Below, piece by piece: positions 27,224-27,610 of a DNA stretch of 64,000 nucleotides. The position numbers and the translations under genes are program-made. Position 1 is the first letter of the stretch; each line of letters begins with the position of its first letter. Source of the DNA: an uncultured virus (IMG/VR IMGVR_UViG_2846005711_000006) (lineage: Duplodnaviria > Heunggongvirae > Uroviricota > Caudoviricetes); the IMG/VR virus record IMGVR_UViG_2846005711_000006; one strand, given 5' to 3'. The notes below the pieces were generated by a model. It ran no database searches. It was not told the DNA's origin and was given only the letters and a program-made list of their open reading frames with translations.

Positions 27224-27386
27224 AGGGAAACGCTTCAGCTTGGAACGGTTGATAGTACAATCTCCTAACCGAGGTAGTCTAAATGGACTCCATCAATGAT
27301 TTGACCGTTCCTTCCAAGACCATGCTTGCATACGGGCACTTAGGCACCATTGAAAATGTCGATCATAACTGCAGAGGCGCTCCCTC
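27224..27386 (-). ncRNA. Putative IS110 bridge RNA (copy B)
   Basis: Homologous to 5353-5516 with covarying stem GGAACGGT/ACCGTTCC; guide TATGCAAG equals target flank. Confidence 0.72.
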
Positions 27387-27610
27387 TACAACTATACTTG
27401 AAAATTACTAAAAACTTAAATTTGTGTGTTTCTTTCTGATTCGACAGATTTTGTCTGTTCGATGCTTGCATATTTCTTTTTGATATACTAACCTTTACAT
27501 GCTAAGAAAGCGCATACCGGTAGAGTCGTTCTGTGCCTCACCACCTTGTAGTTACTCTACCAGTATTGTTATGCTGCAACGATCTTGACTGATCGTTCAT
27601 ATTGATGCTC

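What the first reader, a model, noticed from the sequence alone, without database searches (positions are those of the whole stretch)
27224..27472. IS110 copy B leader carries a guide identical to its own target site
Seen (minus strand): leader segment TATGCAAG (27325-27332) equals the left target flank plus AG core (27465-27472). TTAGGAG (27262-27268) equals the element right end plus core. The same leader position in copy A reads TTGGTTAG while the scaffold is conserved. Established: IS110 bridge RNAs have target- and donor-binding loops. Inference: a naturally reprogrammed bridge-RNA pair with an AG core, with a loop layout possibly different from IS621.
Basis: partly seen in the sequence, partly recalled or inferred. 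Interest (0 to 1): 0.75.

Follow-up and report, generated by a model that had tools for sequence, protein, structure and literature searches.

The report
Bridge RNA of a Wolbachia IS110 element
The stretch is the guide ("bridge") RNA gene of a decayed jumping gene in a Wolbachia-like genome, and its variable segments spell out the DNA on both sides of its own insertion site; the mechanism has been known since 2024, so this is a well-supported new example and not a new kind of system.

Summary
Observation confirmed and interpretation supported. Copy B (window 25880-27466, minus strand) is an IS110-family element of the ISPpu9/ISWpi13 clade. Its leader reads UAUGCAAG at 27332-27325, identical to its left flank plus an AG core. 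Uninterrupted sites in 11 of 12 related loci read flank-AG-flank with AG once, so the AG core is exact. The guide hexamer tracks the left flank over 73 distinct insertion sites and 14 guide types in the genus: 4.70/6 identical against 2.13 for shuffled guides, 0 of 20,000 shuffles as high. It also holds across phyla: 35 of 55 distinct loci against 3.3 for shuffled guides. A weaker 5' segment pairs with the right flank, and the donor guides follow the element ends. Both loops carry the top-strand guide 5' and the long bottom-strand guide 3'. This is the reverse of IS621 as published, equivalent to an IS621-like CT core read on the other strand. The AG core is already published for ISPpu9, reversed guide order for IS1111 seekRNAs, and 32,190 bridge RNAs were catalogued in 2026. 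This scan also holds 35 earlier bridge-RNA notes on other DNA. Expression is only hinted at, and the transposase of copy B is broken. Novelty: new member of a known kind. Interest about 0.35.

The parts
25880..27466 (-). IS110-family element copy B, including the AG core at both junctions (27466-27465 and 25881-25880)
   Evidence: Ends defined by homology to copy A and about 100 relatives. Empty sites in 11 of 12 loci read LT-AG-RT.
27467..27472 (-). Left target flank (LT) TATGCA; it includes the ATG of the interrupted prophage gene
   Evidence: The empty site reads ...AAATATGCA AG AGAATATTAAGCG.
25872..25879 (-). Right target flank (RT) AGAATATT
27222..27389 (-). Predicted bridge RNA, about 160-170 nt. 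The outer stem pairs 27383-27377 with 27233-27227.
   Evidence: In the alignment of 20 distinct leaders, 94.7% of cells pair, against at most 44% when the partners are slid. The sense alifold energy is -25.6 against -13.7 for the antisense strand. A lone 164-nt contig at 27215-27379 was found in one RNA-Seq-labelled run.
27352..27359 (-). Right target guide (RTG) ACAUUUUC on the 5' side of loop 1. It pairs with core G plus AGAATAT on the top strand (7 of 8 positions, one of them a G-U pair).
   Evidence: Family-level complementarity is 2.78/6 against 1.84 for shuffled guides, 0 of 10,000 shuffles as high.
27325..27332 (-). Left target guide plus core (LTG) UAUGCAAG on the 3' side of loop 1, identical to LT plus AG
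27322..27324 (-). CAU directly after the LTG-core, identical to the first 3 nt of the element's left end; handshake-guide-like
   Evidence: It varies as CAU/CGU/CCU/UGU in step with the left end CAT/CGT/CCT/TGC in relatives. This was read by eye; there is no formal count.
27291..27296 (-). Right donor guide candidate (RDG) UUGAUG on the 5' side of loop 2. It pairs with the left end CATCGA.
   Evidence: The U changes to C where the left end reads CATCGG or CATCAG (types C and D). The pairing is imperfect in types G, H, I and L032.
27262..27268 (-). Left donor guide plus core (LDG) UUAGGAG on the 3' side of loop 2, identical to the right end plus AG
   Evidence: UUAGAAG goes with right end TTAGAAG in types C, H and I. 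In other phyla UUCAGGAG, UUGAAAG and UCGGGAG go with the matching right ends.
25892..27197 (-). Transposase remnant, broken by four 8-bp deletions. The longest open frame is 317 aa and carries only PF02371.
5272..6911 (+). Copy A, the retargeted relative. LTG-core UUGGUUAG at 5405-5412, cores at 5272-5273 and 6910-6911, and an internal first right end with AG at 6876-6877.

Best explanation
Window 27222-27389 (minus strand) encodes the bridge RNA of an IS110-family insertion sequence of the ISPpu9/ISWpi13 clade. The RNA has two pseudo-symmetric guide loops.

[quoted passage not shown] It is followed by CAU, which matches the first bases of the element and probably acts as a handshake guide after strand exchange.

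Loop 2 (donor) does the same for the joined ends of the excised circle: UUGAUG reads the left end and UUAGGAG reads the right end plus AG.

A DEDD/serine recombinase bound to this RNA would exchange strands at the shared AG. That places the element between TATGCA-AG and AG-AGAATATT without duplication other than the core.

Shown here: the element ends, the exact AG core, and the covariation of all four guide segments with their DNA partners. Inferred: that the RNA is made, bound and used as in IS621. Also inferred is that the reversed guide order means the cargo is inverted relative to an IS621-like CT core. Copy B itself is now inert because its recombinase gene is broken.
For: 1. The recombinase family is established. 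An intact relative (L025:1770-3113) hits PF01548 and PF02371 and NCBIfam NF033542, 'IS110 family RNA-guided transposase', at 284.6 bits.

2. The AG core and ends are established. 11 of 12 loci from other genomes hold the uninterrupted site LT-AG-RT. For copy A, L203-L205 read ...GTGGGT AG GAAGAGAAAG.

3. LTG-LT covariation in the genus. 97 copies gave 77 distinct left flanks. Four were dropped because they are the right end of another copy, leaving 73 sites and 14 guide hexamers. Family-mean identity is 4.70/6 against 2.13 +/- 0.32 for shuffled guides (0 of 20,000 as high). For example, 13 type-B sites all end in ATGCA.

4. LTG-LT covariation across phyla. 64 of 79 loci carry both loop motifs, and 55 of these are distinct. 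35 of the 55 have a copy of LTG+AG with at most one mismatch 116-160 nt upstream, against a mean of 3.3 (maximum 10) for shuffled guides.

5. RTG-RT complementarity is 2.78/6 against 1.84 +/- 0.25 (0 of 10,000 as high). RT1-4 pair in 61-69% of 61 sites and RT5-6 in 38-39%.

6. The donor guides follow the ends. LDG G/A goes with right end TTAGG/TTAGA, and RDG U/C with left-end A/G. The same rule holds in Deltaproteobacteria, Binatia, NC10, Acidobacteriota and Dehalococcoidia MAGs.

7. Structure. 94.7% of 660 cells pair, against 34-44% when the partners are slid. Helix 4 (hairpin H1) has invariant G-U/U-G pairs that exclude the opposite strand. The alifold energy is -25.6 for the sense strand and -13.7 for the antisense strand.

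8. Published parallel. ISPpu9, which is clustered with ISWpi13 in Durrant's supplementary table, inserts at an AG dinucleotide and drives bridge RNA plus tnp from a native promoter (PMC12288879 passages).

9. Hint of an RNA. In run X13 the only contig laid on the stretch is 164 nt long, spans 27215-27379 and carries a one-letter guide variant. A metatranscriptome contig (X4) covers the whole element.
Against: - No direct proof of transcription. The runs are contigs, three of the four are only guessed to be RNA, and DNA can be present in them.
- The promoter scan calls nothing in 27150-27520. Only a conserved -10-like TATAGT/TATAAT is seen by eye.
- The single-sequence fold is not better than shuffles (z = -0.70).
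- Covariation inside helices is modest: 5 pairs have changes on both sides, and 159 of 500 shuffles reach that. A rival fold with a hairpin between the two loops fits equally well (95.7%), so the two-internal-loop drawing is not settled.
- RTG pairing is weak and short. In type C and about 4-5 of the 11 type-H sites the register is shifted by one.
- The RDG pairing has an uncompensated mismatch in types G, H and I.
- Copies within a family are kin, and the families were defined by their guide, so the permutation numbers overstate independence.
- That 'left' in the IS621 papers means the flank next to the RNA-coding end was read from the text (RE-LE order). It was not checked on an IS621 sequence.
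Confidence: 0.88

Rival explanations
1. The leader is only a structured 5' untranslated region that controls translation of the transposase, as described for ISPpu9 with its Asr9/Ssr9 small RNAs. On this view its likeness to the flanks has no guiding role.
For: The ISPpu9 papers describe a long structured 5'-UTR that inhibits tnp translation, plus an antisense sRNA (PMC12288879 passages; PMC8450116 seen only as a search listing). The predicted RNA ends about 20-30 nt before the ATG at 27197-27195.
Against: It does not explain why four separate segments follow the two flanks and the two ends across 14 guide types and several phyla. A regulatory role may coexist with guiding. The ISPpu9 authors themselves place the bridge RNA in that transcript.
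Confidence: 0.05
2. The internal copy of the target acts as DNA, not RNA. Either short DNA-DNA homology between the circle and the target directs insertion, or the segment was copied from the flank by gene conversion after insertion.
For: Sequence alone cannot tell an RNA guide from a DNA one. Gene conversion between copies does seem to occur (an identical small deletion plus a linked substitution is shared by copy A and type C).
Against: Copies of one family at 13 different sites share one guide while their wider flanks differ, so the guide precedes the insertion. The guides sit in a conserved fold with G-U pairs that fit one strand only. The family's mechanism is shown to be RNA-based for IS621 and ISEc21 (PMC11208160 and PMC11187229 passages).
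Confidence: 0.03
3. Chance: an 8-letter identity in AT-rich DNA next to a conserved scaffold.
For: TATGCAAG alone occurs 6 times in the window against 3.57 expected.
Against: The 11-mer occurs only at the two places (expected 0.09). The match sits at the one alignment position that varies with the flank in every family (0 of 20,000 shuffles as high).
Confidence: 0.01

Closest known systems
IS621 bridge RNA (IS110 group; Durrant et al. 2024, PMC11208160; Hiraizumi et al. 2024, PMC11208158)
   Same: Both are encoded in the left non-coding end on the sense strand of a PF01548+PF02371 recombinase gene. Both have two loops with four guides that read both strands of target and donor around a shared 2-nt core. 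Both combine a long guide of 8-9 nt including the core with a short one of about 4-5 nt, and have a handshake-like extension next to a guide.
   Different: The core is AG, not CT. [quoted passage not shown] The short guides pair with at most the G of the core. The recombinase is about 445 aa against roughly 315-330 aa for the IS621 branch (PMC11187229 passage). A -10-like box lies inside the left end, so no junction promoter is evident. No Rfam family matches.
ISPpu9 of Pseudomonas putida (Pares-Guillen et al. 2025, PMC12288879)
   Same: It falls in the same 60% protein cluster as ISWpi13 in Durrant's supplementary table 1. It inserts at an AG dinucleotide present at both ends and has a native promoter for bridge RNA plus tnp. 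Its alternative end boxes give modular circles; compare the second right end carried by 4 type-A copies here.
   Different: The passages I read do not map the guide segments of the ISPpu9 RNA. I did not fetch an ISPpu9 sequence, so the likeness to it rests on the published cluster and on relatives of 45-62% identity from other phyla. No Asr9/Ssr9 counterparts were looked for here.
IS1111-family seekRNAs (ISEc11, ISPa11, ISKpn4, ISPst6) and the IS110-type ISEc21 seekRNA (Siddiquee et al. 2024, PMC11187229)
   Same: [quoted passage not shown] The paper states that the order of the two strand matches is reversed between IS1111-type and IS110-type, and it reports natural retargeting (ISMch6).
   Different: IS1111 seekRNAs lie downstream of the gene and those elements have subterminal inverted repeats. 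Here the RNA lies upstream. The guide order here appears to be the one reported for IS1111-type, in an element with the IS110-type location.

Membership tests
IS110-family bridge-RNA element (IS621 type) | DEDD RuvC-like domain plus Tnp domain recombinase (PF01548 + PF02371) | tested here: met
   The intact relative L025:1770-3113 hits both domains and NF033542. Copy B itself retains only PF02371, because its N-terminal part is broken.
IS110-family bridge-RNA element (IS621 type) | Non-coding RNA encoded in the left end, upstream of and in the same sense as the recombinase gene | tested here: inconclusive
   A conserved fold on the sense strand only and a lone 164-nt contig in an RNA-Seq-labelled run. 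No read-level proof of a transcript, and no promoter was called.
IS110-family bridge-RNA element (IS621 type) | Target guides covary with the two flanks of the insertion site | tested here: met
   LTG 4.70/6 against 2.13 (0 of 20,000 as high). RTG 2.78/6 against 1.84 (0 of 10,000 as high). Across phyla, 35 of 55 loci against 3.3.
IS110-family bridge-RNA element (IS621 type) | [quoted passage not shown] | tested here: met
   LDG equals the right end plus the core in all types, with matched G/A, T/C and other changes. The RDG is compensated in types C and D, and imperfect in G, H and I.
IS110-family bridge-RNA element (IS621 type) | A 2-nt core shared by target and donor, present at both junctions and once in the empty site | tested here: met
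   The core is AG, whereas IS621 and its orthologues have CT.
IS110-family bridge-RNA element (IS621 type) | [quoted passage not shown] | tested here: not met
   The order is reversed in both loops, compared with the text of PMC11208160 and PMC11208158.
IS110-family bridge-RNA element (IS621 type) | Two stem-loops, each with an internal guide loop | tested here: inconclusive
   The two-loop model (94.7% paired) and a model with a hairpin between the loops (95.7%) fit equally well. The centroid of the single fold keeps the donor-loop basal stem.
IS110-family bridge-RNA element (IS621 type) | The recombinase binds the RNA, and recombination needs it | not testable with these tools
   Needs biochemistry.
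ISPpu9/ISWpi13 clade | AG dinucleotide at both ends and at the insertion point | tested here: met
   PMC12288879 passages.
ISPpu9/ISWpi13 clade | Protein membership in the cluster that holds ISPpu9 and ISWpi13 | not tested
   Judged only by eye against the domain strings of the cluster representative printed. No alignment to an ISfinder sequence was made.
IS1111-type seekRNA element | Guide RNA downstream of the gene, with subterminal inverted repeats | tested here: not met
   The guides lie upstream of the gene. The right non-coding end is only about 10-15 nt long after the stop codon.

The most novel reading that the evidence does not exclude
The ISPpu9/ISWpi13-type bridge RNAs are a mirror-image architectural class found across many phyla. 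Both loops carry the short top-strand guide 5' and the long bottom-strand guide plus core 3', around an AG core. The recombination site is therefore an IS621-like CT site read on the strand opposite to the RNA and recombinase genes.

In Wolbachia this class has diversified into at least 14 guide types, and two further things stand out. Some types home into the donor-loop DNA of sibling elements. One type reached 13 or more sites in one genome although every copy there carries the same two frame-breaking 8-bp deletions. That would make it a guide-only element moved by a recombinase supplied in trans.
Probability: 0.3. Interest if true: 0.6.

Novelty: new member of a known kind. Interest (0 to 1): 0.35.

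Why it matters
The finding gives a clean natural series of retargeted guides on one scaffold, with many insertion sites per guide. That series shows how much pairing the system needs in nature: about 5 letters plus the core on one side and about 4 on the other.

It also documents a guide order and core that differ from the IS621 model used for engineering. This matters for anyone who designs guides for this large clade.

Wolbachia has no established genetic tools. Host-adapted RNA-guided recombinases that are intact in several strains (51 of 78 complete copies) are candidates worth testing.

For the window itself the element is a dead copy. It interrupts the start of a prophage gene.

Tried and rejected
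- Rfam has no family for this RNA. Neither the gathering search nor the E-value search up to 10 gave anything but three chance-level hits. WsnRNA59 at 27496-27584 lies outside the element.
- The window's own assembly is not held, so the nearest genome G001 and the genus were used.
- I first took TGATCG/CGGTCA as the basal stem of loop 1. I dropped it because the same CGGT pairs better with ACCG downstream, giving an 8-bp donor-loop stem that is also kept in the centroid fold. I did not count it separately.
- I first read the right end of copy A at 6878. Empty sites show it lies at 6911, so the RTG statistic was redone.
- The control genomes of a family search do not include Pseudomonas putida, so ISPpu9 itself was not examined.
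- The run-level data leave parts of the element uncovered in X1, X2 and X13, and give no verdict on expression.
- A search of Durrant's supplementary files found ISWpi13 and ISPpu9 only in the phylogeny table. File 3 is cut in storage and file 2 is unreadable.
- A formal count of the 3-nt handshake-like segment against the left end was not obtained. That point rests on reading by eye.
- Earlier notes of this scan by sequence found nothing, and by the words including Wolbachia found nothing.

Full report
**What is there**

The window is Wolbachia-like. Rfam finds WsnRNA59 at 27496-27584 (91.7 bits) and two group II intron domains, and prophage-type genes surround the site.

On the minus strand, 27466 to 25880 is an IS110-family element, here called copy B. 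A second copy, copy A, lies on the plus strand from 5272. It is 75% identical to B over 1,623 aligned columns.

- TATGCAAG at 27332-27325 in the leader and at 27472-27465 (flank plus AG).
- TTAGGAG at 27268-27262 in the leader and at 25886-25880 (right end plus AG).
- TTGGTTAG at 5405-5412 in copy A, between the same conserved CCCG and CATGG.

The identity in copy B runs to 11 letters, and that 11-mer occurs only at these two places in the window (expected 0.09). The 8-mer alone is not unusual (6 found, 3.57 expected).

**Ends and core**

The flank of copy B is conserved in other genomes of the genus. Of 12 loci fetched with the left flank, 11 read ...AAATATGCA AG AGAATATTAAGCG... without the element. 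The twelfth is the same occupied site in the nearest held genome. AG therefore stands once in the empty site and at both junctions of the element, so it is a 2-nt core in the sense used for IS621.

Copy A sits in a multi-copy recombinase-like gene. Uninterrupted copies of that gene read ...GTGGGT AG GAAGAGAAAG. This places the true right end of copy A at a second right-end box with its core at 6910-6911. The 34-nt module with this second end is shared by four type-A copies that diverge immediately after it.

**Relatives and covariation in the genus**

The leader has matches in 25 of 60 genomes of the genus and 23 matches in the nearest genome. I fetched about 100 copies. From these I located 103 left ends and 87 right ends. 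101 copies had enough sequence, 78 of them with both ends, and they gave 36 distinct leaders. 97 of the 101 carry the loop-1 motif; the other 4 are truncated copies.

The six letters between CCCG and AG differ between families and follow the left flank. The family letters are my own labels.

| Family | Guide hexamer | Left flank before AG |
|---|---|---|
| B | UAUGCA | 13 sites, all ending in ATGCA |
| E, G | UCGUUU | CGTTT or CGTAT |
| H | UAUACA | GATACA |
| F | UUCGUA | ..GTA |
| I | UAGGAC | GAGGAC |

The count ran as follows:
- 77 distinct left flanks were found.
- 4 were dropped because they are the right end of another copy.
- This left 73 sites and 14 guide types.
- Family-mean identity is 4.70 of 6, against 2.13 +/- 0.32 when guides are shuffled among families; 0 of 20,000 shuffles reach the observed value.

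The first of the six letters is nearly always U and does not follow the flank. The working guide is therefore about 5 letters plus AG. Copies within a family are kin and families are defined by the guide, so the figure overstates independence. It is nonetheless far outside the null.

**The other three guides**

*Right target guide.* The variable stretch just 5' of the invariant CA(A/C)UGG is complementary to the right flank. Its last C lies opposite the G of the core. After correcting the four type-A flanks, 61 distinct right flanks in 9 guide types give 2.78 of 6 Watson-Crick pairs against 1.84 +/- 0.25 (0 of 10,000 shuffles as high). Positions 1-4 pair in 61-69% of sites and positions 5-6 in 38-39%. 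For copy B, ACAUUUUC pairs with G+AGAATAT at 7 of 8 positions, one of them a G-U pair. In type C and about 4-5 of the 11 type-H sites the register is shifted by one.

*Left donor guide.* UUAGGAG equals the right end plus AG. It reads UUAGAAG wherever the right end reads TTAGAAG.

*Right donor guide.* The candidate UUGAUG pairs with the left end CATCGA. It becomes CUGAUG where the end is CATCGG or CATCAG. Types G, H and I keep an uncompensated mismatch.

*Handshake-like segment.* The three letters after the left target guide (CAU, CGU) match the first letters of the element (CAT, CGT). In other phyla CCU, CGU and UGU go with CCT/CCC, CGT and TGC. This was read by eye and no formal count was obtained. 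It corresponds to the handshake guides of IS621, which lie 3' of a guide and pair with the other DNA after strand exchange (PMC11208158 passages).

**Beyond Wolbachia**

A scan of one genome per species found 568 relatives of the intact recombinase, and 79 loci were kept, at 45-100% identity and from many phyla. Their leaders keep the same scaffold: CA(A/T)TGGTG, a hairpin, CCCG, six variable letters, AG, C(A/G)TGG, and a second unit that ends in CCCG-TTTAGG-AG.

In MAGs with several copies, the ends show flank-AG-left end and right end-AG with matching guides. This holds in a deltaproteobacterium, Binatia, NC10, Acidobacteriota and Dehalococcoidia.

Without using any boundary call, the numbers are:
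- 64 of 79 loci have both motifs, and 55 of these are distinct.
- 35 of the 55 have a copy of guide+AG with at most one mismatch 116-160 nt upstream.
- Shuffled guides give a mean of 3.3 and a maximum of 10 (500 shuffles).

**Fold**

On 20 distinct leaders, a model with an outer stem, two basal stems and two hairpins pairs 94.7% of 660 cells, against 34-44% when the partners are slid. Changes on both sides occur in 5 pairs, which is not more than in shuffles (159 of 500 reach it). A rival model with a hairpin between the loops fits as well (95.7%).

Invariant G-U pairs, and an alifold energy of -25.6 for the sense strand against -13.7 for the antisense strand, point to the sense strand. The single fold of copy B is no better than shuffled sequence (z = -0.70). 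Its centroid does keep the outer stem, the donor-loop basal stem and hairpin 3.

**Expression**

No promoter was called. A -10-like TATAGT/TATAAT is conserved 8-10 nt before the outer stem.

Contigs of four runs were laid on the stretch:
- In X13, an RNA-Seq-labelled run whose nature is a guess, the only contig laid on the stretch is 164 nt long and spans 27215-27379. That is almost exactly the predicted RNA. It carries a one-letter change inside the guide.
- In X4, a metatranscriptome, one contig covers the whole element.

These are hints only.

**Comparison with what is known**

The protein is an IS110-family RNA-guided transposase.

[quoted passage not shown] Here the order is reversed and the core is AG, the reverse complement of CT. 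Read on the other strand the site is IS621-like, so the RNA and recombinase genes are inverted relative to the core.

None of the elements of this picture is wholly new:
- ISPpu9, clustered with ISWpi13 in Durrant's supplementary table, inserts at AG and has alternative end boxes (PMC12288879 passages).
- Siddiquee et al. report that the order of the strand matches is reversed between IS1111-type and IS110-type RNAs, and report natural retargeting.
- A 2026 preprint catalogues 32,190 bridge RNAs with 86 models, many of which deviate from IS621 (section 2.4 read).
- No paper in the library holds IS110, Wolbachia and bridge RNA together. Only the ISPpu9 paper holds IS110 with 'AG dinucleotide'.
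- This scan has 35 earlier notes on IS110 bridge RNAs in other genomes.

**State of the copies**

Of 78 complete copies, 51 have an open frame of 441-480 aa and 27 are broken, among them copies A and B. Copy B is therefore a fossil. Its guide still records the site it entered, which is the second codon of a prophage gene just downstream of the large serine recombinase gene and WsnRNA59.

**Verdict**

This is a new member of a known kind, with a guide order and core that differ from the IS621 model.

Noticed in passing
window 26937, 26954, 27000 and 27148 (copy B) and about 5595 (copy A); loci L048, L014, L071: The broken transposases are broken almost only by short deletions of one size. The four lesions in copy B are each exactly 8 bp. 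Two 8-bp lesions are shared by all copies examined in G014, and copy A has one. Type C has two 8-bp, three 7-bp, one 6-bp and one 10-bp deletion in the coding part, plus a 15-bp gap at the start of the aligned region. Several deletions hit catalytic motifs (GIDVG, ESTGVYW, GLSP). Two recur at the same place in different lineages: copy B with L071, and copy A with type C, the latter together with a linked substitution that suggests gene conversion. Contigs of runs X1 and X4 hold type-B copies with eight extra letters at all four places and almost no other difference. No mechanism was found. An error or edit in the held sequences is not excluded.
   Followed up: partly
G014 (loci L024, L048, L053-L062): Type-B relatives sit at 13 or more distinct sites that all end in ATGCA-AG. 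Yet every copy in that genome carries the same two frame-breaking deletions, and no intact copy of the clade was found there. Either the lesions spread by gene conversion, or broken copies were moved by an enzyme supplied in trans.
   Followed up: partly
L070:122-382 and L030:1308-1568; also the flank of L025: Families E and G (guide UCGUUUAG) have inserted into the donor-loop DNA (..ACCTCGTTT AG GAG) of sibling elements. The insertion splits the sibling's bridge-RNA gene exactly at its left donor guide. This accounts for 3 of their 17 distinct left flanks.
   Followed up: partly
L101 (G020) and L089 (G032): Head-to-tail tandem arrays. In G020 four copies follow one another, right end-AG-left end with nothing between, which is the circle junction kept in the chromosome. 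In G032 three copies repeat every 1,733-1,735 bp together with a short spacer.
   Followed up: no
window 6878-6911; L004, L006, L007: Four type-A copies carry a 34-nt module with a second right-end box (GGAGTTTATTAGG AG) after the first one, and insertion used the outer box. This recalls the alternative end boxes and modular circles of ISPpu9.
   Followed up: partly
window 25581-25895 (minus strand): Copy B entered after the second codon of a 104-aa prophage gene; the empty site reads ATG CAA GAG AAT. The right end of the element supplies an in-frame GTG, so an open frame MSFLGENIKR... persists.
   Followed up: no
window 27496-27584 (plus strand): Rfam WsnRNA59 (91.7 bits) lies 30 nt from the insertion point of copy B on the opposite strand. 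It sits between the serine recombinase gene and the element, is not part of the element, and is conserved at the empty sites.
   Followed up: partly
L012-L021 (G001): All ten type-C copies have identical flanks on both sides and lie next to fragments of another IS110-family element. One insertion was therefore probably multiplied as part of a larger repeat. Their loop-1/loop-2 linker also lacks the 6 nt ACGGTC that form the donor-loop basal stem.
   Followed up: no
window 5080-5271 and 6912 onward: The gene interrupted by copy A (recombinase-like...EEANVVRKVFLWV...) is itself multi-copy, with 13 or more copies in each of three genomes of the genus. Group II intron domains lie nearby at 3478-3565 and 8786-8873.
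   Followed up: no
run X4, contig 16 laid on window 25883-27489: A 1,782-nt contig joins an element right end (reading TTAGAAG) to 23 nt of copy B's left flank and then to the left end of a type-B element. That flank contains AAGGTT AG, the target of type-C guides, 21 nt upstream of the type-B site. In that sample a second element may therefore sit there.
   Followed up: no
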